Below, piece by piece: positions 6,832 through 58,076 of a stretch of DNA of 64,000 nucleotides. Source of the DNA: a phage; the sequence record OZ346212.1; one strand, given 5' to 3'. How positions within the stretch are numbered: the first letter of the stretch is position 1; each line of letters opens with the position of its first letter. The notes under the pieces are model-generated. The model saw only the letters and a program-made list of their open reading frames with translations. It was not told the DNA's origin and made no database searches. The position numbers were made by a program, and so were the translations under genes.

Positions 6832-8057
6832 TGAGCGTTATTCAACAATTCGCTAACCCGATGAATCCGCGTGAAACTGTTTTACTGGCTCACGGCATGA
6901 TTAAACGTGTCAGCATCAAGCCTATCAAAGGTGCTGATCCTACAACAGGTATTAAAACCACTGTGTGGCAAGGTAAGAAAATTGAATCCAGCCACACCAT
7001 CTCTTTACTGATTTCTGAACTGGATTCCTCTGATAACCTGCTTCAAGGTGGTGAAGAAGTTTGGATCAGCATGGGTGATAAGCTGCTTAAACCTGGTCAT
7101 CAAGACTCTGTCTCTGTTAAAATTGATGACAAGTGGGAAACCGTAACGCCGGGATGGATCGTAAATATTCCTTTGAAGGCAAACGAGCATAACGGTAAGA
7201 CCTATTACAAAGGCTCACTGGCTAAGATGGTCAAGCTGGGTGCAGGAGAGGCTCCAGCAGCGACTCAGCAGCAAAAACAGCAACAAGGTGCACAATCACA
7301 AGGCCAGAAGCAGAAACCTCAGCAGAATGCCAATCAGGACGTTTTACGCATCTATGGTGATGTGACTCAGATTGTTGGCAACGTGGTTACTGTTAATGAC
7401 CACAAGATTGGCGAAGGTGCTATGGTTGTAACTGATGAGCAGCTTAAAGACCTGGTGGTAGGTGGTCGTGTTGCAGCCATTGTTGACAAAGACACCGGAA
7501 ACATTATCAGTGGTTTCAAGGCCTATCCTCCTAAGGCAGAGAACGGCACTCAAGGCTCTGGTGGCAAGCGTAAATCCTCTTACGACCCTATCGGTGTGGA
7601 AACGGGGCATAGCATCAATGCGTTGCAGATCATCCTGGATCGCGGGTTTAAGGTAGACGACCCACTGGGCGTGGCTAAAACACTGCACGTAGTCACCATT
7701 GAGCTTAAGAAAGAGTATGCTCAAGCCACCAACCGAGCTGAAGATGAAGTAGGTGCCAGTGTCGGTAATGCGGTGTTGAACGCTTGTCGCCGTATTGACA
7801 AGAAAACGAAAGTTGATGATTTTGCAGTGGCAATTACTGCAGAAGCAAAAGATGTCTTGACTAATCTAGCTGAGCCGTTGTACGATTGGATCAAGAACGG
7901 TGCTGAGTCCACTGACCATCAAGAACCTCAGGCTGCCAAACAGGAAGCAGCTCCACAGCAAAACACTGTAGACGCTCCTCCTGTAAATGATGCGGAAGAT
8001 GACCCAATGGATCAGAATCCAGCACAGTACGTCTTTGATGATGACATCCCATTTTAA
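6831..8057 (+). CDS. putative ssDNA-binding-like protein with SSB-type C-terminal tip
   Basis: Ends ...YVFDDDIPF*, identical to the E. coli SSB interaction tip; internal Q-rich low-complexity linker (QQQKQQQGAQSQGQKQKPQQ). Confidence 0.45.
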   Translation: MSVIQQFANPMNPRETVLLAHGMIKRVSIKPIKGADPTTGIKTTVWQGKKIESSHTISLLISELDSSDNLLQGGEEVWISMGDKLLKPGHQDSVSVKIDDKWETVTPGWIVNIPLKANEHNGKTYYKGSLAKMVKLGAGEAPAATQQQKQQQGAQSQGQKQKPQQNANQDVLRIYGDVTQIVGNVVTVNDHKIGEGAMVVTDEQLKDLVVGGRVAAIVDKDTGNIISGFKAYPPKAENGTQGSGGKRKSSYDPIGVETGHSINALQIILDRGFKVDDPLGVAKTLHVVTIELKKEYAQATNRAEDEVGASVGNAVLNACRRIDKKTKVDDFAVAITAEAKDVLTNLAEPLYDWIKNGAESTDHQEPQAAKQEAAPQQNTVDAPPVNDAEDDPMDQNPAQYVFDDDIPF

Positions 8058-8898: not shown

Positions 8899-9324
8899 AT
8901 GATCTATGAAATGCCAAAACTGATTCGTGACGATGCCCAAAACGCCCACACCTTTATCATGGGCAAGCGCATGGATATTATTTGTCATAAAGATTTCTGG
9001 GAAGGTAGTTACTTCACAGAATATTTTGGTAAACTGGATAATGGTCTGCTGATCCAGTTCTACACCGATGCGGAAAACAATATCTGCTGGGAGTTCGAAA
9101 CTGAAGATATCCATAAACTTTTCACCTTCCTAGGTATTAAGGTTGAGGCCAAGTTTGAAGAAGGCGAGTGCGACGATTGTGGATTCTACGAGGTAACAGA
9201 TTTCTATCTCCCAAGTGGTGAGAACCTTTACTATGAAAGCCACTTCGGCAACTCAAATATGCCACAAGGTTGGGATGAGTTTTTTGAAATTGCGGAAGAG
9301 GAGCTGACATACCGTGATTATTGA
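8899..9324 (+). CDS. hypothetical protein (141 aa)
   Basis: Track ORF, SD-like GGAG upstream. Confidence 0.55.
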   Translation: MIYEMPKLIRDDAQNAHTFIMGKRMDIICHKDFWEGSYFTEYFGKLDNGLLIQFYTDAENNICWEFETEDIHKLFTFLGIKVEAKFEEGECDDCGFYEVTDFYLPSGENLYYESHFGNSNMPQGWDEFFEIAEEELTYRDY

Positions 9325-9772
9325 TACTGTAGCGGGAGATTTAATCTCCCTTTTTAAGAGCGGTGCTGGTCACCTGATCCACGGTTGTAACTGCTTTCAT
9401 ACAATGGGTGCAGGCATAGCGAAAGATATTGCCCGTGAGTTCCCTCAAGCACTGGCAGCCGACAAAGAGACTGCCTATGGTAATCTGGACAAGCTGGGTA
9501 TGTTTTCTTGTTGGGAGCATTTTGCCAAGAACAGGGTCGTATATGGAATCAACCTGTATACCCAGTTCTACCCAGGGCCCAATGCTGAATACTTCTCAAT
9601 AATGAAAGGTTTTGAGCGAGTCAACGAGGTATTCAAAGGTGTGTCATTGCCGTTCTACATTCCTAAAATTGGATGCGGTATTGGCGGTCTAAAGTGGGAA
9701 CATGTAGAAGATGTAATTAATCTTGCAACCACAGATATTGATGTGGTTGTAGTAGAGTACAAAAAGTGTTGA
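9314..9772 (+). CDS. macrodomain protein, TARG1/OARD1-like (putative ADP-ribose hydrolase)
   Basis: GDLISLF...HGCNCFHTMGAGIA and IPKIGCGIGGLKWEHV align with human TARG1 GDLF...HCISEDCRMGAGIA and MPRIGCGLDRLQWENV. Confidence 0.7.
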   Translation: MIIDTVAGDLISLFKSGAGHLIHGCNCFHTMGAGIAKDIAREFPQALAADKETAYGNLDKLGMFSCWEHFAKNRVVYGINLYTQFYPGPNAEYFSIMKGFERVNEVFKGVSLPFYIPKIGCGIGGLKWEHVEDVINLATTDIDVVVVEYKKC

Positions 9773-10222: not shown

Positions 10223-10250
10223 TTGACATCTGAAAACTGCAGTGTATAAT
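10223..10250 (+). promoter_or_regulatory. sigma70-type promoter (TTGACA-16-TATAAT)
   Basis: Consensus hexamers 59 nt upstream of ATG 10282. Confidence 0.6.
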
Positions 10251-36263: not shown

Positions 36264-37532
36264 TCAGCAACCACAACTTCCGTAGTGCTTAACTCGCTCG
36301 ATAACTTCCGCTTGCTTACCTTTATTGTAAGGACGGGAGTTAGGACTGGAAAGGTATCCAGACACACGTCGAATTACACTGATCGTTCCCTCTTCATGGT
36401 TTCCACACTCTGGGCATACAAAGCCTTTAGCTGTTGCACTGAACTCACCAGAGAAACCACACTTGAGACATTTATCCACAGGTTGGTTAATACCAAAATA
36501 CATAATGTGTTTATACCCGAAGTCAACAAGAGCCTCTAAAGCATCCAGGTTGTTTTTCAGGTTAGGTGTTTCTACGTATCCGATGTTGCCACCAGAGGAT
36601 ATCATAGCAAAACCTTCTTCATACTCCCACTTATCAAAAGGAGAGCTATTGATCCATACTGGCTGATGGAAACTGTTGGTGAGATATTCATGCTCGTGCT
36701 TCAACACTTCAGGATATTCACGATCCAGACAGGTTGCAGCTTTATAGCATAGACTCTCAGAAGGGGTGCCGTACAAACTAAACGCTAGTCTACTTTTCTT
36801 CTTGTATCGCTCACAAGCATCTCTCATGTGCTGAAGTATTCCAAGAGCTAAAGCCTTGTCACCCTCTCTGCCCAAAATCTGACAGGTTTCATACACACCA
36901 ATATACCCAATACTGATGGAAGCGTACCCGTCATAGAAGAGTTTATCAATACTCTCTTCAGGATCCAGGCGAGCAAGAGCGCCTTCACACCACATGATAG
37001 GGTTCTGCCCTGCCTTAGTGCCTTTCAGACGGTTAACCCTTACAAGGTGAGCTTCATATGCCAAATCCAGATACTCGTCAAGAACGGAAAAGAAATCAAC
37101 ACCTTCCGTCTTAGCTTTTGCCGCAATCATTGGCAGGTTAAGACTAACAACACCCAAGTTGAATCTGCCGAGGTATTTCTCCTCACCTGTTTCCAAGTCA
37201 TTGTATTTGCTAAGAAAACTCCGGCAACCCATGCTCGTTACTTTACCATCTGTCGAGCCTGTCACTTTACGATTTAGTGGAACAGAAACAAAGTCAGGAT
37301 AAATCCGCTCTGCAGAGCATTCCAGAGCTAATCGTTTCAAATCATAGTTAGGATCTCCAGGGTTCATGTTGACACCCTCTTCTAGGAAGAACAACACTTT
37401 AGGGAACACAGGTGTGATACGTTCTTCACCAAGACCCATTTTGTGGACTTTCAAGTAGTTTTTGGTAATCATTCTACCAAAGACTGAGGTGTCCAGACCT
37501 AAACTTAATGTGATGAATGGAGTCTGCTGTCT
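36264..37532 (-). CDS. nrdD: anaerobic ribonucleoside-triphosphate reductase, exon 2 (glycyl-radical half)
   Basis: In-frame upstream extension RQQTPFITLSLGLDTS...; MGCRSFL active-site Cys, RRVSGYL glycyl-radical motif, C-terminal CxxC...CxxC. Confidence 0.75.
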   Translation of the reverse strand, partial: RQQTPFITLSLGLDTSVFGRMITKNYLKVHKMGLGEERITPVFPKVLFFLEEGVNMNPGDPNYDLKRLALECSAERIYPDFVSVPLNRKVTGSTDGKVTSMGCRSFLSKYNDLETGEEKYLGRFNLGVVSLNLPMIAAKAKTEGVDFFSVLDEYLDLAYEAHLVRVNRLKGTKAGQNPIMWCEGALARLDPEESIDKLFYDGYASISIGYIGVYETCQILGREGDKALALGILQHMRDACERYKKKSRLAFSLYGTPSESLCYKAATCLDREYPEVLKHEHEYLTNSFHQPVWINSSPFDKWEYEEGFAMISSGGNIGYVETPNLKNNLDALEALVDFGYKHIMYFGINQPVDKCLKCGFSGEFSATAKGFVCPECGNHEEGTISVIRRVSGYLSSPNSRPYNKGKQAEVIERVKHYGSCGC

Positions 37533-38332
37533 CCTCCCTGTGTTTCCACAGGGCCAGACTATCTCTTACTCTACTTCAATAAGATAATAACCCTTTATTG
37601 TGAGATGCTTACCTTCGGCATTTCCTTCGATAGCCCTATGAACGTTACCTACGTTCAAATTTAAGGCTTTTGCACAGGCATAGAGTGAAGGATATTCACC
37701 CACCAAGGTTTTACCTTTGTATGCCTGCACTTTCCTATAGCACTTACCTGGACAAAGTCCTGTTCGGAAAGCATGTCTCTTATTATCTTCCGGCAAAACC
37801 CACTCTAGGTTAGACGGATGATCATTCAATGTATTGCCATCTTTATGATTCACTTCCCAGTTTTCAGGGTCTTCTGGGACATCCGGCAAACAATACAAGG
37901 CAACAATCCTTGAGGTTTGGATTCGAATCTTTTTACCTTTGTGGTTGAAAGAGTACATATAACGGCGTTTAACATGCTTGTTACCTTTTCCATAACCTCC
38001 CCACAATATTGGGTGTAGCATTCCACGTTTTCCGTATACGTTTCCAACCTCATCAATCACATAGTTTGATTCTTCACCATTAAGAATGATCTTTTTCATA
38101 GAGCCTCTCCATTTCGAAGTTAGTATTTCAACTAACCCCTACACTACTTGGTTCAGAAATGTTTGTCAAGCATTTCTGCCTTTCGTTAGTCGTTACAACC
38201 GTTCCAACTCCTGTAAGAACTAGTCACGGGATTGGCATAGCTTTCGCCTTAGCGTTCCCCGTTAGCCGGATTTACCGACCCCTCTTATGAGGTTAGGAGA
38301 GTTTTACAACGGCCAGTTTGTTAACCGTTGAC
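37533..38332 (-). mobile_element. putative group I intron (T4-like core) in nrdD, HNH ORF in 3' region (boundaries approximate)
   Basis: 5' portion contains CUAACGGGGAAC...CAAUCCCGUG, matching the T4 td intron core AAACGGGGAAC...CAAUCCCGUG; exon 1 ends in U, insert ends in G; splice restores INTLTS|RQQTPF. Confidence 0.6.
37566..38099 (-). CDS. HNH homing endonuclease (intron-encoded)
   Basis: WEVNHKDGNTLNDHPSNLEW HNH signature; lies between the two nrdD halves. Confidence 0.8.
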   Translation of the reverse strand: MKKIILNGEESNYVIDEVGNVYGKRGMLHPILWGGYGKGNKHVKRRYMYSFNHKGKKIRIQTSRIVALYCLPDVPEDPENWEVNHKDGNTLNDHPSNLEWVLPEDNKRHAFRTGLCPGKCYRKVQAYKGKTLVGEYPSLYACAKALNLNVGNVHRAIEGNAEGKHLTIKGYYLIEVE

Positions 38333-39184
38333 AGAAGTTAACGTGTTGATTTGATAGAGCAAAGTCTGCATGCTGTCAAATACGTCTTTATCTGTCATTT
38401 GCATTGCAACAGTTTCAGCATCCGGCAACCAATGTTCCTGGCAAAATTTAAGGTTCTTCTCATAGGTTGCTTCAGCATACTGTGCCAGATAATGATCAAT
38501 ATGGCTCATAGTCTGACCACCATATTGAGCACTAGCTACCGCACTAGAGATTTGGCTAAGGATTGTTGTTGCAACCCCTATTGACTTCGGCTTACTGACA
38601 TGGGCGTTACCAATGTTGAATCCGTTTTCCAACATATCTGGATAATTTACCAAACAACAGTTTGTTAACGGACTGATCAAGTAGTCAAGATCATGCACAT
38701 GGATGAATCCTTTATTGTGCTCTTCGGAGACACGGTCTGGCAGGATCTGTGTTGATGCAAGGTGTTTGCTAAGAATACCTGCAAGCAGGTCGCGATGAGT
38801 GTGTACATGATTAGTAGGCTTATTTGCGTTTTCTTTTGTAAATTCATCACAAGTTCGATCCAAGAAGCCACTAATATCTGCAAGCAGTTTTCCACCTGCC
38901 TCTCTGTTATTATCTCTTGTCTGTCTATACTGGATGTATTCTCTGGCTGCACATTTTAAACCCATATCCATAAGAGCATCTTCAACAAGGATATGGATAT
39001 TTTTTACAGAGATCGTGCACTGGTCGGTTGGTAGATTGTTAGCAACAACTTCATTAACCGCGCAGGCGATCCGGTAAGCTTCTTCTTCAGTATGTCCAGA
39101 CTCAAGTAAGGCGGACTCTGCCGCCTTGATCACCTTAATTCCGTTATAGAACTCTTCTCTACCGTCCCGTTTTACAACTTTCAC
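38333..39184 (-). CDS. nrdD: anaerobic ribonucleoside-triphosphate reductase, exon 1 (ATP-cone and N-terminal half)
   Basis: MKVVKRDGREEFYNGIKV ATP-cone start; ends ...LYQINTLTS just before the intron. Confidence 0.75.
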
Positions 39185-55296: not shown

Positions 55297-56010
55297 TTAA
55301 ATATACTCTGTTACATCCTTGAAGCTCGAAGGCTTCATAATCTTACCTTTACTGTCAAGGAATATAATAACTTTATTACCGTTGTAGAACTCCTCTTTAG
55401 CAACGAAACCTTCGTAGCGACCACCAAAACGACGCTCAAGATCTTCAATCTCTAACTCTATGAGCAATTCAGTAGACATATCTGCACTGGCACCGTGAGA
55501 ATATCGTAGATGGTTGATCCGTGCAAACTTGCTGTCATTAGATTTGAGAACCTTCCGCATCATCCCACACACATCGCCGCGAAGCTGGAACAGCAAAGCT
55601 GTTGACAACTCCGCTAAGCGGTAAGCTGACGCTCTTTGCTTGGATGTGTTTTTCGCAGCGATCAGTGTATCATAGAACTCACCGATCTTGAACTTAAGAC
55701 CTCGTGGATTATCAAACAGGTTTGACCACTTTTCGTGATTATCATTAACAAGATAAGCGGCATAACTTGTGACAACGTGAAGATCGCAGGCCTCTTTTAG
55801 CAGGTGATCTCCACCATCACCTTTCTCCAGCTCTTCCAAAACCTCATTGAACTCTTCCTCAATGAAGCTAAGCTGTAATTCGAATGGTGTGTATGATTTT
55901 TTCACTTTAGCTGCCACACGGTTCCAGTTTTCCACCCAGTTGGCAGACCAAAGGTAGTTTTCAGGCTGAGACAGTTTTTCCAGGTTGTCGATCAGTTTAG
56001 TATTCAGCAT
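55297..56010 (-). CDS. hypothetical protein, possibly MazG-like NTP pyrophosphohydrolase
   Basis: EEEFNEVLEELEKGD...LKEACDLHVV reminiscent of MazG EExxE...EA...D pattern; weak. Confidence 0.3.
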   Translation of the reverse strand: MLNTKLIDNLEKLSQPENYLWSANWVENWNRVAAKVKKSYTPFELQLSFIEEEFNEVLEELEKGDGGDHLLKEACDLHVVTSYAAYLVNDNHEKWSNLFDNPRGLKFKIGEFYDTLIAAKNTSKQRASAYRLAELSTALLFQLRGDVCGMMRKVLKSNDSKFARINHLRYSHGASADMSTELLIELEIEDLERRFGGRYEGFVAKEEFYNGNKVIIFLDSKGKIMKPSSFKDVTEYI

Positions 56011-56023
56011 TAAAGGTCTCCTT

Positions 56024-56785
56024 TTAAAGTTCCATAAAGTTTTCTACAGTTTCAATAAATGCTTTATCAGAGAAAGCGTCAACAGCACCGTTAAACCATA
56101 CAGGGATCCCGCGATCCTCATATTGATAAAGGTCGCTACGTGAAATGCCACTCCCATCTGCACTCTGCGAGTCATACTTGTTTACAATCAGCAGTTTTGT
56201 GCCTTTACAAGTAGCAGGAAACAATTCCCAGTTAAAATTAATAACTGTGTTAGAACAACCTACTAGGATCACCATATCATTGCTTGTGAGAGATGTCAAC
56301 AGGTCATACATGTCTGTATACTTAGGAGCAACCTCACCGAAGAACACTACATTGGGCTTAACCCAGGTATACTTGCCTGTATCTACCTCCGTGTATCCGA
56401 TATTTTTAATTACATCATTACCTTCAGCATCTTCGTAGGTGATTTCAGGCAAATACCCGTGGACATGTAAAATATCTTCATGTTTTACACCAGCACGCTC
56501 CAGCAAATCATCTACATTGGTGGTAAGGTTGATCACACGACCAGACCAGCGGGAATACCACTCAGCGATCCGAAGATGTGCAAGGTTAGGATCAACACTG
56601 CCCAGAGCTACACGACGTGCATTGTAAAAGTCATGCACCTTATAGTAGTTCTTGGCAAAGGTGTGGATGTTGCACACCTCATCGATGCTGAAATTCTCCC
56701 ACATTGCAGTGCTACCAGATCGGAAAGTGGGAATACCAGATTCAGCGCTCAAACCAGCACCGGAGATAATAATCAGTCGTCGCAT
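56024..56785 (-). CDS. Sir2-family (sirtuin-like) NAD-dependent protein lacking zinc-ribbon cysteines
   Basis: Rossmann signature IIISGAGLSAESGIPTFRS and catalytic-His region LHVHG; no CxxC...CxxC pairs. Confidence 0.75.
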   Translation of the reverse strand: MRRLIIISGAGLSAESGIPTFRSGSTAMWENFSIDEVCNIHTFAKNYYKVHDFYNARRVALGSVDPNLAHLRIAEWYSRWSGRVINLTTNVDDLLERAGVKHEDILHVHGYLPEITYEDAEGNDVIKNIGYTEVDTGKYTWVKPNVVFFGEVAPKYTDMYDLLTSLTSNDMVILVGCSNTVINFNWELFPATCKGTKLLIVNKYDSQSADGSGISRSDLYQYEDRGIPVWFNGAVDAFSDKAFIETVENFMEL

Positions 56786-56793
56786 AAGTGTCC

Positions 56794-57144
56794 TCAGTAG
56801 ATGTTTTGTTTAATCTCTATTCCAAACTTCTTGAATGAGTCAGCAGCAAGCATAAATTTACGAGCTGCCGATGGATTAGAAGTATGCACGAAAATAATCA
56901 CGTTGTCAATAAGTGGTGGCTTTCCGAATACAAGTTTCTCCTCTAGCGCAGAGAAGCAGTCGTACCCTTCAAGCACTTCACCTAGATCATTGTCAAAATA
57001 CCACTCAGATACGCGTCTGTAGAGCTTTCTCTTATCATTAAGAAAATCCATAAACTCAGAAGAATTCTTTAGCCACAGAGCGTCTGGGAGTCCATAATCT
57101 GACGGATCTCTAAAATCATCAAGCCACACAATCCACTTCTTCAT
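56794..57144 (-). CDS. hypothetical protein (116 aa)
   Basis: Track ORF between the sirtuin-like and ligase-like genes. Confidence 0.5.
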   Translation of the reverse strand: MKKWIVWLDDFRDPSDYGLPDALWLKNSSEFMDFLNDKRKLYRRVSEWYFDNDLGEVLEGYDCFSALEEKLVFGKPPLIDNVIIFVHTSNPSAARKFMLAADSFKKFGIEIKQNIY

Positions 57145-58076
57145 TGCATATAGTCCTCGTTGTGGAAATAGTAGTCCAGTATCTCACGACGCTCCTGCTC
57201 TAATAAGCAATTCCACACATCTTCTGTATAGTTGCTACGAATAAATTTTACCATACCGTAAAACTCTTCGTCAACACGTTTAAAGATATCATCATCCCAA
57301 ATCTTCCAAGCTTTACCCCTCATTACTGCCTTCCGTGCCAGATAGTATGGAGACTTGATCTTCAGCTGCAGATCATAAGGGTAGTAAGGCTTACGAATCA
57401 TATACCCTTCACCTCTTGTTTCTGCAGCTAATTCTTTTGCATAGCTGAACGGAATTTCACGCACAGTGTTAGGACGTTTTGCACCAAGGTATTTGGCAAT
57501 CCCATCTAAAGCTGCTTCTGGTAGCATTATTCCAGAATCATTATATCTGCAACCTATCAAATATGCGCCATGGTCTTCTTGAACAATATGCGGATCTGAA
57601 GGGTGACAAATTTCAAACATGAATGTCATGTTTTCATTGCCCATAACCTTCTTGATAAGATCTAAATTACCACATTGCTCTTGGATGGTTTCCTTTGCAA
57701 GGTTACAATATGGAGAATCAAGAGACCCGGTTGTTGAGAACAATAGGTCACCTTTATGAGATGATACCACACCAAGGAATCCGTTCTTTTTCTCTACCGC
57801 AGTCACAAGCTTATTGTCAGGCAGGTTGGTGGAGTTTTCTCCCAAGTTAAACACTTTTGTGAAGGGCCATGCCACAACATTTCCTTCATTACCTACAACA
57901 ATGCCTCGGCACTCCAGTAAACGAGGGGACAAATGCCATAAATTGTTGTAAAATACTTTTCTAGCATATTTATAGATCTTTAACCCGAGATCTGGGTAAT
58001 ACCTACTGGTTACAAGACCTTTGTCAACTAGGTCGTCTGCATTAAAATACTTCATTATATGTTCCTCATTTGTCAT
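57141..58076 (-). CDS. putative RNA ligase / nucleotidyltransferase (ligase superfamily)
   Basis: Candidate motif I VEKKNGF (KxNG); divergently paired with P-loop kinase and phosphoesterase next to tRNA genes. Confidence 0.4.
   Translation of the reverse strand: MTNEEHIMKYFNADDLVDKGLVTSRYYPDLGLKIYKYARKVFYNNLWHLSPRLLECRGIVVGNEGNVVAWPFTKVFNLGENSTNLPDNKLVTAVEKKNGFLGVVSSHKGDLLFSTTGSLDSPYCNLAKETIQEQCGNLDLIKKVMGNENMTFMFEICHPSDPHIVQEDHGAYLIGCRYNDSGIMLPEAALDGIAKYLGAKRPNTVREIPFSYAKELAAETRGEGYMIRKPYYPYDLQLKIKSPYYLARKAVMRGKAWKIWDDDIFKRVDEEFYGMVKFIRSNYTEDVWNCLLEQERREILDYYFHNEDYMQ

What the first reader, a model, noticed from the sequence alone, without database searches (positions are those of the whole stretch)
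9314..9772. TARG1/OARD1-like macrodomain among early genes (candidate reverser of ADP-ribosylation)
The motif pair GDL...HGCNCFHTMGAGIA and IPKIGCGIGGLKWEHV matches the TARG1-type macrodomain class. This class includes enzymes that remove ADP-ribose from proteins and from DNA (the DarG antitoxin macrodomain is of this type), so a phage copy expressed early is a plausible counter to host ADP-ribosylating toxins or defence systems such as DarT, or a partner for the phage's own sirtuin-like protein.
Basis: partly seen in the sequence, partly recalled or inferred. Interest (0 to 1): 0.65.

Follow-up and report, generated by a model that had tools for sequence, protein, structure and literature searches.

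The report
Phage macrodomain, likely anti-DarT2 enzyme
This gene of an rV5-like E. coli phage encodes a small ADP-ribose-removing enzyme related to phage T4 Tk.4 (AdfM), which T4 needs to resist the bacterial DarTG2 defence, so it is a real but already recognised kind of phage counter-defence gene.

Summary
The ORF at 9314..9772 (+, 152 aa, GTG start) is real, and both quoted motifs are present. The window is a Vequintavirus, 99.9% identical to Escherichia phage WalterGehring/Bas51, where this gene is bas51_0094.

- **Fold:** the protein is a single macrodomain. It passes Pfam Macro, matches PHROG 335 at 1e-59, and gives an AF2 model with pLDDT 96.9. The best structural matches are TARG1, Poa1p, DarG, BT1257 and SCO6735.
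- **Closest characterised relative:** it is a full-length homologue (39% identity, E 1e-43) of T4 Tk.4. A 2025 preprint named that protein AdfM and showed T4 needs it to resist DarTG2.
- **Active site:** it does not carry the TARG1 site. TARG1 K84 / DarG K80 is an invariant Gln (Q84) here, and TARG1 D125 is Gly. SCO6735 has the same Asn/Gln/Gly-loop arrangement. It removes ADP-ribose from thymidine in DNA and rescues cells from DarT, and its Q85A mutant is inactive.
- **Sirtuin idea:** a phage Sir2 gene exists, but 46 kb away on the other strand. Its distribution across phages is largely independent of the macrodomain (T5 has Sir2 and no macrodomain; no T4-like phage appeared among the Sir2 hits sampled).

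Most likely function: a DNA ADP-ribosylglycohydrolase that counters DarT2. No assay has been done on this protein. I rate it a new member of a known kind, of modest interest.

The parts
9314..9772 (+). Macrodomain gene (152 aa), orthologue of bas51_0094 and homologue of T4 tk.4/adfM
   Evidence: ORF. Pfam Macro. PHROG 335 at 1e-59. 39% identity, E 1e-43, to T4 Tk.4. AF2 pLDDT 96.9. Foldseek hits to TARG1, Poa1p and DarG.
9298..9303 (+). Shine-Dalgarno-like GAGGAG, 10 nt upstream of the GTG start
   Evidence: Read directly from the sequence.
8899..9324 (+). Upstream ORF (141 aa, PHROG 8157, function unknown) whose stop overlaps the macrodomain start by 11 nt, suggesting translational coupling
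   Evidence: It is not a conserved partner: in Krischvirus JK32 and in T4 the upstream gene is vs.
9380..9421 (+). HGCNCFHTMGAGIA loop. H23 and N26 correspond to SCO6735 H24 and N27 and to DarG N22.
   Evidence: N26, G24, C27, M31, G34 and A36 are invariant in 104 homologues. Alignments to solved macrodomains.
9551..9565 (+). NLYTQ motif. Q84 (codon 9563-9565) sits at the position of TARG1 K84, DarG K80 and SCO6735 Q85.
   Evidence: N80, Y82 and Q84 are invariant. Profile and multiple alignments. SCO6735 Q85A is inactive (PMC9411070).
9659..9706 (+). IPKIGCGIGGLKWEHV diphosphate-binding loop. G120 and G122 correspond to SCO6735 G126 and G128. G124 sits where TARG1 has D125.
   Evidence: P117, G120 and G122 are invariant. 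Alignments.
9334..9355 (+). Perfect 7-bp hairpin (GGGAGAT-TTA-ATCTCCC) followed by TTTTT, inside codons 7-14 of the gene. It is conserved in T-even, Krischvirus and Vequintavirus orthologues. Its function is unknown.

Best explanation
The gene encodes a stand-alone, catalytically competent macrodomain of the Tk.4/AdfM family. It is a phage 'orphan antitoxin-like' ADP-ribosylglycohydrolase.

Proposed mechanism:
1. When the phage infects an E. coli that carries a DarTG2 system, the DarT2 toxin ADP-ribosylates thymidines in single-stranded phage DNA and blocks replication.
2. The phage enzyme binds the ADP-ribose through its HGCNCFHTMGAGIA and GCGIGG loops.
3. It hydrolyses the ribose-thymine bond and restores the DNA.

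The chemistry is probably the lysine-independent, Gln/Asn-positioned, water-mediated mechanism proposed for SCO6735. It is unlikely to be the Lys (DarG) or Lys/Asp (TARG1) mechanism.

**Shown here:** the fold, the family membership, conservation of the active-site residues, and homology to T4 Tk.4.

**Taken from the literature for relatives:** T4 needs Tk.4 to resist DarTG2. SCO6735, a Gln-type enzyme, removes ADPr from thymidine in DNA. The phiKZ macrodomain AdfM removes DarT2 marks.

**Inferred, not shown:** that this particular protein has that activity, and that DarT2 is its target in nature.
For: - **Homology to T4 Tk.4:** full-length, 39% identity, E 1e-43. It is 69% identical to the protein at the tk.4 locus (vs-X-tk) of Krischvirus JK32.
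- **Function of the T4 homologue:** T4 tk.4 was the single hit in a transposon screen on DarTG2, its knockout sensitises T4, and it was named AdfM. The chimallivirus AdfM macrodomain removes DarT2 ADP-ribose from DNA in vitro (PMC13309987).
- **Similarity to DarG:** DarG models hit the protein (PADLOC 1.4e-13, NCBIfam 1.7e-12), and the M. tuberculosis DarG macrodomain is the best PDB sequence hit.
- **Structure:** the AF2 model (pLDDT 96.9) superposes on TARG1, DarG, Poa1p and SCO6735 with TM 0.71-0.78.
- **Active site:** N26, Q84, G120 and G122 are invariant in 104 homologues. They align with SCO6735 N27, Q85, G126 and G128, each of which matters for ADPr-thymidine hydrolysis.
- **Selection:** dN/dS is 0.098. 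About 117 records carry a version at least 80% identical, which is close to the ~119 records carrying a Sir2 at least 80% identical to the one in this window, used here as a rough proxy for the genus. The gene is therefore probably near-universal in Vequintavirus.
- **Correlation:** T5 is DarTG2-sensitive and has no macrodomain, while the same profile detects T4, JK32 and phiKZ.
Against: - No experiment exists on this protein or on any Vequintavirus. Bas54 was screened in the same preprint, but no DarTG2 result for it is reported.
- At 39% identity a shift in substrate is possible.
- The DarG/TARG1 catalytic Lys is missing.
- The DNA-positioning lysines K34 and K89 and the long mobile loop of SCO6735 are not conserved (A33, G88, and a gap in alignment A2).
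- The protein has a net charge of -3, unlike the electropositive DNA groove described for SCO6735.
- The T4 evidence is genetic only and comes from a preprint.
- Genomic context is uninformative: every neighbour belongs to a PHROG of unknown function.
Confidence: 0.62

Rival explanations
1. The enzyme reverses ADP-ribosylation of targets other than DNA thymidine. These could be proteins or RNA modified by other host ADP-ribosyltransferase toxins or defences (for example mRNA ADP-ribosylation by CmdTAC), or targets modified by phage-encoded transferases. On this view any anti-DarT2 activity is absent or secondary.
For: TARG1 and SCO6735, the structural relatives, also act on Glu/Asp-ADP-ribosylated proteins. 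The family is very widespread, in 2,831 of 50,697 phage records across many hosts, which could mean a more general role. The protein is mildly acidic.
Against: The only functional datum for this family (T4 Tk.4) is specific to DarTG2. The best sequence matches among defence-system and curated models are to DarG. SCO6735 prefers DNA to protein substrates.
Confidence: 0.17
2. The enzyme clears ADP-ribose metabolites, as an ADP-ribose-1''-phosphate phosphatase (Poa1p-like) or an O-acetyl-ADP-ribose deacetylase. It might process the product of the phage's own Sir2-family enzyme.
For: Poa1p is among the best structural hits (E 4e-9). Public annotations call it 'phosphatase', 'Poa1p-like' or 'O-acetyl-ADP-ribose deacetylase'. 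The same genome has a Sir2-family gene at 56024..56785 (-) (PF02146, 6.9e-28) next to an RnlA-like RNA ligase.
Against: The 'phosphatase' label comes from the old A1pp domain name, not from an assay (T4 note 'contains A1pp phosphatase motif'). Sir2 and the macrodomain are 46 kb apart on opposite strands. Their distributions are largely independent: Sir2 homologues occur in 1,023 phage records, mostly T5-like, while the macrodomain occurs in 2,831, mostly T4-like. T5 has Sir2 but no macrodomain.
Confidence: 0.12
3. The protein acts without catalysis. It might sequester an ADP-ribose-derived immune signal, or inhibit an ADP-ribosyltransferase by direct binding.
For: Macrodomains are ADP-ribose binding modules. 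Catalytically dead SCO6735 Q85A still inhibits DarT by interaction.
Against: The residues that are invariant across 104 homologues are exactly those needed for catalysis in SCO6735 (N, Q and the Gly loop). The protein lacks the DarT-binding C-terminal domain of DarG: the NCBIfam match covers only positions 4-144 of 338.
Confidence: 0.05

Closest known systems
T4 Tk.4 = AdfM (anti-DarT factor macrodomain), preprint 10.1101/2025.11.20.689424
   Same: Same family and same architecture: a single macrodomain of about 150 aa. 39% identity over the full length, E 1e-43. Identical HGCNCFHTMG and NLYTQF..PGPN motifs, including Gln at the catalytic position. The Krischvirus protein at the same tk.4 locus is 69% identical to the window protein.
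   Different: Different phage subfamily (Vequintavirinae rather than Straboviridae) and a different genomic neighbourhood: downstream of the replication module among unknown small genes, rather than between vs and tk. Its function is untested.
Streptomyces coelicolor SCO6735 and Bacteroides BT1257 (PDB 5E3B, 2FG1), PMC9411070
   Same: Best profile-to-PDB sequence matches (5e-15 and 1.5e-14). Same Gln at the catalytic position (Q85 vs Q84). Same Asn (N27 vs N26), His (H24 vs H23) and Gly loop (G126/G128 vs G120/G122). SCO6735 removes ADPr from thymidine in DNA and rescues cells from DarT.
   Different: Only 22-26% identity. The phage family lacks the long 'mobile loop' and lysines K34 and K89. 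SCO6735 is a chromosomal gene linked to the bacterial DNA-damage response, not a phage gene.
DarG2 antitoxin macrodomain (T. aquaticus 5M31/5M3E, M. tuberculosis 5M3I) and chimallivirus AdfM (phiKZ gp104), PMC5179494 and PMC13309987
   Same: Same fold (TM 0.75-0.78) and the same conserved Asn. DarG is the best single-sequence PDB hit. The expected biological role is the same: removal of DarT2 marks.
   Different: DarG and phiKZ gp104 have the FPTK catalytic Lys (K80, K78), where this family has YTQ. phiKZ gp104 matches only DarG structures, at E 9e-25, whereas this protein matches at 1e-5. DarG also has a C-terminal DarT-binding domain and an adjacent darT gene, both absent here.
Human TARG1/OARD1 (PDB 4J5R/4J5S)
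   Same: Top Foldseek hit (E 6.8e-10, TMt 0.81). Similar size and a shared GCG..W loop motif.
   Different: Both residues of the catalytic dyad are replaced: K84 by Q84 and D125 by G124. TARG1 has Ser where this protein has N26. 24-26% identity.

Membership tests
Macro domain superfamily (PF01661) | Significant match to the family model above its curated threshold | tested here: met
   25.9 bits against a cut-off of 22, E 1e-5. Precomputed PF01661 hits on most homologues.
Macro domain superfamily (PF01661) | Three-layer alpha/beta/alpha macro fold with the two ADP-ribose-binding glycine-rich loops | tested here: met
   AF2 pLDDT 96.9. Foldseek probability 1.00 to many solved macrodomains. The loops HGCNCFHTMGAGIA and GCGIGG are invariant or nearly so.
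AdfM / T4 Tk.4 family (PHROG 335) | Full-length homology to T4 Tk.4 | tested here: met
   39% identity over 153 columns, E 1e-43. PHROG 335 at E 1.4e-59. The A1 profile finds T4 Tk.4 at 8e-51.
AdfM / T4 Tk.4 family (PHROG 335) | Required by the phage to resist DarTG2 | not testable with these tools
   Shown for T4 only. No Vequintavirus data were found.
AdfM / T4 Tk.4 family (PHROG 335) | Removes DarT2-installed ADP-ribose from DNA | not testable with these tools
   Shown biochemically for phiKZ AdfM and for SCO6735, but not for any Tk.4-type protein.
TARG1/OARD1 | Catalytic Lys84 | tested here: not met
   The aligned residue is Q84, invariant in 104 homologues.
TARG1/OARD1 | Catalytic Asp125 in the GCGLDRLQW loop | tested here: not met
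   The aligned residue is G124 in GCGIGGLKW.
TARG1/OARD1 | ALC1-like macrodomain fold | tested here: met
   Top Foldseek hit is 4j5r_B, E 6.8e-10, TMq 0.75 and TMt 0.81.
DarG2 antitoxin | Catalytic Lys80 (FPTK) | tested here: not met
   NLYTQ aligns with NFPTK.
DarG2 antitoxin | C-terminal DarT-binding domain (full-length protein of about 340 aa) | tested here: not met
   The protein is 152 aa. The NCBIfam DarG match covers profile positions 4-144 of 338 and scores 47 bits against a cut-off of 250.
DarG2 antitoxin | Encoded next to a darT toxin gene | tested here: not met
   Neighbours at 6.8-11.1 kb are phage PHROGs of unknown function with no Pfam hit. The bacterial homologue P0057 also stands alone.
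SCO6735/BT1257-type (Gln) macrodomains | Gln at the catalytic position, held in place by the conserved Asn | tested here: met
   Q84 and N26 are invariant and align with Q85 and N27. Their role in SCO6735 is described in PMC9411070.
SCO6735/BT1257-type (Gln) macrodomains | Extended 'mobile loop' after the Gln, and DNA-positioning lysines K34 and K89 | tested here: not met
   Alignment A2 shows a 5-residue gap in the phage proteins where SCO6735 has GMKTGSKG. K34 aligns with A33 and K89 with G88.
Poa1p-type ADP-ribose-1''-phosphate phosphatase | Poa1p active-site residues (H23, S30, F152 were the mutated positions in the deposited structures) | not tested
   Only fold similarity (E 4e-9) and a profile match (3e-12) were obtained. 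I did not obtain a residue-level alignment across the active site.

The most novel reading that the evidence does not exclude
The Tk.4-type phage macrodomains, this one included, may be a lineage separate from DarG that arrived at DarT2 counter-defence using lysine-free, Gln-based chemistry. Chimalliviruses, by contrast, use a macrodomain that carries the DarG-type Lys. If the Gln-type site tolerates other leaving groups, as it does in SCO6735, the enzyme could be a broad-spectrum eraser. It would then protect the phage from several ADP-ribosylating defences on DNA, RNA or protein. Its expression might be tuned by the conserved hairpin plus T-run inside its first 14 codons.
Probability: 0.2. 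Interest if true: 0.55.

Novelty: new member of a known kind. Interest (0 to 1): 0.3.

Why it matters
If the inference holds, rV5-like phages carry a ready-made eraser of DarT2 DNA damage. These phages are often considered for therapy because of their broad host range. The gene would help explain that host range and predict that DarTG2 will not restrict them.

The family is common, occurring in about 5.6% of 50,697 phage records. Its function would therefore annotate thousands of genes now labelled 'phosphatase' or 'hypothetical'.

The one point this analysis adds is mechanistic. The Tk.4/AdfM family lacks the DarG/TARG1 catalytic lysine and carries the SCO6735-type Gln, whereas the chimallivirus AdfM carries the DarG-type Lys. 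Phage anti-DarT2 macrodomains therefore come in at least two active-site types, which may reflect more than one recruitment.

Tried and rejected
- **Sirtuin partnership.** I confirmed the Sir2 gene but rejected an obligate pairing. The two genes are 46 kb apart on opposite strands and differ in phyletic distribution, and T5 has Sir2 with no macrodomain.
- **Guilt by association.** Nine neighbouring ORFs give only PHROGs of unknown function and no Pfam hits. The chromosomal Pelagimonas homologue has housekeeping neighbours and no DarT. Neither helped.
- **Sub-family assignment by score.** Profile E-values to BT1257, SCO6735, DarG, TARG1 and Poa1p all fall between 5e-15 and 3e-12, and TM-scores between 0.71 and 0.78. 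Only the active-site residues discriminate.
- **Literature on Vequintavirinae versus DarTG2.** Nothing was found. LeRoux et al. 2022 is not held in the library. A paper on Migulavirinae that mentions macrodomains concerns ThsA and is not relevant. A search for the Poa1p structure paper was unproductive.
- **Not run.** I did not run the large representative-protein search, because the phage-collection counts already answered the distribution question.

Full report
**What is there.** The window carries an ORF at 9314..9772 on the + strand: 152 codons plus a stop. It starts at a GTG, 10 nt downstream of GAGGAG at 9298-9303. The start overlaps the last codons of the upstream ORF 8899..9324, so the two are probably translationally coupled.

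The region is 99.9% identical to Escherichia phage WalterGehring (BASEL Bas51, MZ501111), where the ORF is bas51_0094, 'hypothetical protein'. It is 97-99.8% identical to other Vequintavirus (rV5-like) genomes. Those records label the ORF variously as hypothetical, 'phosphatase', 'putative macro domain-containing protein' or 'Poa1p-like family protein'. Comparison with the 80%-identical magaca orthologue gives dN/dS = 0.098, so the gene is under strong purifying selection.

**Fold and family.**
- Pfam Macro (PF01661) is matched above its gathering score.
- PHROG 335 ('phosphatase') is matched at 1.4e-59 over the whole protein.
- The NCBIfam and PADLOC DarG models match at 1.7e-12 and 1.4e-13. 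The match covers only the macrodomain part, positions 4-144 of 338, and scores 47 bits against the equivalog cut-off of 250.
- Against PDB sequences the best single-sequence hit is the M. tuberculosis DarG macrodomain (5M3I). It is followed by yeast Poa1p, S. coelicolor SCO6735, Bacteroides BT1257 and human TARG1.
- An AlphaFold2 model built on 104 homologues is very confident (pLDDT 96.9, pTM 0.91). Foldseek places it with TARG1 (E 6.8e-10), Poa1p, T. aquaticus and M. tuberculosis DarG, BT1257 and SCO6735, all at TM 0.71-0.78.

**The closest characterised relative is T4 Tk.4.** A tblastn search of 50,697 phage records finds the family in 2,831 of them. Most are T4-like phages, where the gene sits beside vs, the valyl-tRNA synthetase modifier. 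It also occurs in Vequintavirinae, FelixO1-like, PB1-like and other phages. T4 Tk.4 (NP_049723, 155 aa) aligns over its full length at 39% identity, E 1e-43. The protein at the same vs-X-tk locus of Krischvirus JK32 is 69% identical to the window protein. That level of identity points to exchange between Straboviridae and Vequintavirinae.

A November 2025 preprint (10.1101/2025.11.20.689424) found tk.4 as the single T4 gene depleted in a transposon library grown on a DarTG2 host. It showed that a clean knockout sensitises T4 to DarTG2 and named the gene adfM. An independent paper gave the same name to a macrodomain protein of chimalliviruses (phiKZ gp104). That work showed it removes DarT2-installed ADP-ribose from DNA and is needed to resist DarTG2 (PMC13309987).

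**The active site is not that of TARG1 or DarG.**
- In the alignment of 104 homologues the invariant residues are G24, N26, C27, M31, G34, A36, D50, N80, Y82, Q84, P117, G120 and G122.
- Profile-to-sequence alignments and an 11-sequence reference alignment agree on the catalytic position. TARG1 has its catalytic K84 there (LITKK). DarG has K80 (FPTKK) and phiKZ gp104 has K78 (FPTKD). The window protein, JK32, T4 Tk.4, phage PhiW-14 and a Pelagimonas chromosomal homologue all have Gln there (N[LA]YTQF).
- TARG1 D125 aligns with G124.
- SCO6735 and BT1257 have Gln at the same position (NMIGQH), and they are the best profile matches in the PDB (5.4e-15 and 1.5e-14).
- According to PMC9411070, SCO6735 lacks the Lys and Asp. 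It nevertheless removes ADP-ribose from thymidine in DNA faster than DarG or TARG1, and it rescues E. coli and Streptomyces from DarT. It is killed by Q85A, nearly killed by N27S and impaired by G128E.
- The window protein keeps the counterparts of all three residues (Q84, N26, G122), plus H23 and G120.
- It does not keep the long mobile loop of SCO6735 or its DNA-positioning lysines K34 and K89. It is also slightly acidic, with a net charge of -3.
- phiKZ gp104 matches only DarG structures, at E 9e-25, and carries the Lys.

Phage 'AdfM' proteins therefore fall into at least two active-site types, and the window protein belongs to the Gln type. The T4 preprint text I searched describes Tk.4 only as a DarG homologue and does not mention this difference.

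**Context.** The gene lies on the same strand as, and downstream of, the primase/helicase, the DNA polymerase and a large protein that one record annotates as a single-stranded DNA-binding protein. It sits at the start of a long run of small genes. All nine neighbours tested fall in PHROGs of unknown function and have no Pfam hit.

Sigma70-like promoter matches on the + strand are enriched in the region: 31 found against 15.5 expected. They include a perfect TTGACA-16-TATAAT at 10223. A terminator-like site follows the gene that ends at 8057. Early or middle expression is therefore plausible but not shown. From my own knowledge, T4 tk.4 lies in an early region.

**The sirtuin idea.** A Sir2-family gene does exist in the window at 56024..56785 (-) (PF02146, E 6.9e-28). 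It lies beside a gene annotated elsewhere as a nucleotide pyrophosphohydrolase and close to an RnlA-like RNA ligase. It is 46 kb from the macrodomain gene and on the other strand.

Its homologues occur in 1,023 phage records, chiefly T5-like phages and Vequintavirinae, and no T4-like phage appeared in the 40 records sampled. I downloaded the 112 kb of unique T5 sequence and searched it with tblastn and with the family profile. T5 has Sir2 (T5.102) but nothing resembling a macrodomain: E > 4 with tblastn, and no profile hit at E <= 10. The same profile finds T4 Tk.4 at 8e-51, JK32 at 7e-61 and phiKZ gp104 at 1e-11.

T5 is the standard DarTG2-sensitive phage in both papers. The distribution thus argues against an obligate Sir2-macrodomain pair and fits, weakly, the anti-DarT2 reading.

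**Explanation and its limits.** The best-supported account is that this is a Tk.4/AdfM-family ADP-ribosylglycohydrolase. It would strip DarT2-installed ADP-ribose from thymidines in phage single-stranded DNA, using Gln/Asn-positioned, water-mediated chemistry like that proposed for SCO6735. I put this at about 0.6.

The fold, family, conserved site and homology are shown here. The activity and target are inferred from relatives at 39% identity (T4, genetic evidence from a preprint) and 22-26% identity (SCO6735, biochemical evidence).

The rivals are:
- erasure of ADP-ribose from protein or RNA targets of other transferases (0.17);
- ADP-ribose metabolite clean-up, possibly linked to Sir2 (0.12);
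- non-catalytic binding (0.05).

The 'phosphatase' label in PHROG and RefSeq derives from the old A1pp domain name and is not evidence for a phosphatase activity.

**Novelty.** The protein family, its fold and its likely function are already described, so this is a new member of a known kind. Nothing was found on Vequintavirinae and DarTG2. The modest added value is the observation that the Tk.4-type AdfM family carries the SCO6735-type Gln rather than the DarG Lys.

**Side observation.** A perfect 7-bp hairpin followed by TTTTT lies inside codons 7-14 of the gene: 9334-9350, GGGAGAT-TTA-ATCTCCC. The Murica record annotates a terminator somewhere within the 1.5-kb stretch matched.
- The equivalent position in JK32 (GGGCGAT-CTC-ATCGCCC) and in T4 tk.4 (AAGGGCGAT-ATT-GTCGCCCTT) forms the same hairpin, at -10 to -13 kcal/mol.
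- I anchored 59 distinct orthologue sequences on the G-D/N motif. In each of 13 of them, from T-even-like, Krischvirus and Vequintavirus genomes, at most 0.3% of synonymous-codon resamplings fold as stably. Most marine and other members have no such structure.
- On 18 aligned sequences, 88% of cells pair, against 33-66% for slid registers. Two pairs show changes on both sides (G:C to A:U, and C:G to A:U or U:A).
- The sequences are related and the counts are small, so this is suggestive only. I did not establish a function such as attenuation, a 3' end for the upstream mRNA, or translational control.

Noticed in passing
window 9334-9355 (+); also L007:3520-3545 and T4 L002 (- strand, codons 7-14 of tk.4): A perfect hairpin plus T-run lies inside the first 14 codons of the macrodomain gene. 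It is conserved at the same codons in Vequintavirus, Krischvirus and T-even orthologues despite only 39% protein identity, with two compensatory base-pair changes. In 13 of the 59 distinct sequences tested, synonymous-codon resampling reproduces the stability in at most 0.3% of trials. Its function is unknown; it could be an attenuator, an mRNA 3'-end element or a translational control.
   Followed up: partly
window 55297-58076 (-): A cluster of three genes: a Sir2-family gene (56024..56785, PF02146 6.9e-28), a gene annotated in Murica as a nucleotide pyrophosphohydrolase (55297..56010, no Pfam hit here), and an RnlA-like RNA ligase (57141..58076). Sir2 homologues occur in 1,023 phage records, mostly T5-like. 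Their role in phages was not examined.
   Followed up: partly
L007:3501-3956 (Shigella phage JK32, Krischvirus): The protein at the tk.4 locus of this T4-like phage is 69% identical to the Vequintavirus protein, whereas T4's own Tk.4 is 39% identical. This suggests horizontal exchange of the gene between Straboviridae and Vequintavirinae.
   Followed up: partly
window 36264-39184 (-): The anaerobic ribonucleotide reductase gene nrdD appears split into two ORFs. ORF 38321..39184 matches Pfam NRDD positions 1-154 and ORF 36264..37472 matches positions 181-562. A 177-aa ORF (37566..38099) lies between them. Murica has a single 2,124-bp gene. This may be an intron or homing-endonuclease insertion; WalterGehring also has a DNA polymerase annotated as joined around a homing endonuclease.
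   Followed up: no
public records MG065644, MG065653-55, MG065659, MG065666: About 16-25 records named 'Campylobacter phage', with Campylobacter jejuni given as host, are 97-100% identical to E. coli Vequintavirus genomes at these loci. The host labels look doubtful.
   Followed up: no
L004:20605-20973 (Escherichia phage MiataMamis): This record annotates the macrodomain gene from an internal ATG, giving 122 aa. That loses the first beta-strand and the invariant N26. The GTG start at window 9314 is supported by alignment with homologues from residue 1.
   Followed up: yes
L006:38463-41018 (Murica), corresponding to roughly 23-25.5 kb in the window by coordinate conversion (the window itself was not checked): A stretch of about 2.5 kb, nearly free of genes, lies where the two oppositely oriented gene blocks meet. 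The HIDEN-SEQ preprint reports that a ~2 kb intergenic region of this kind in Bas54 tolerated no transposon insertions, which suggests an essential non-coding element.
   Followed up: no
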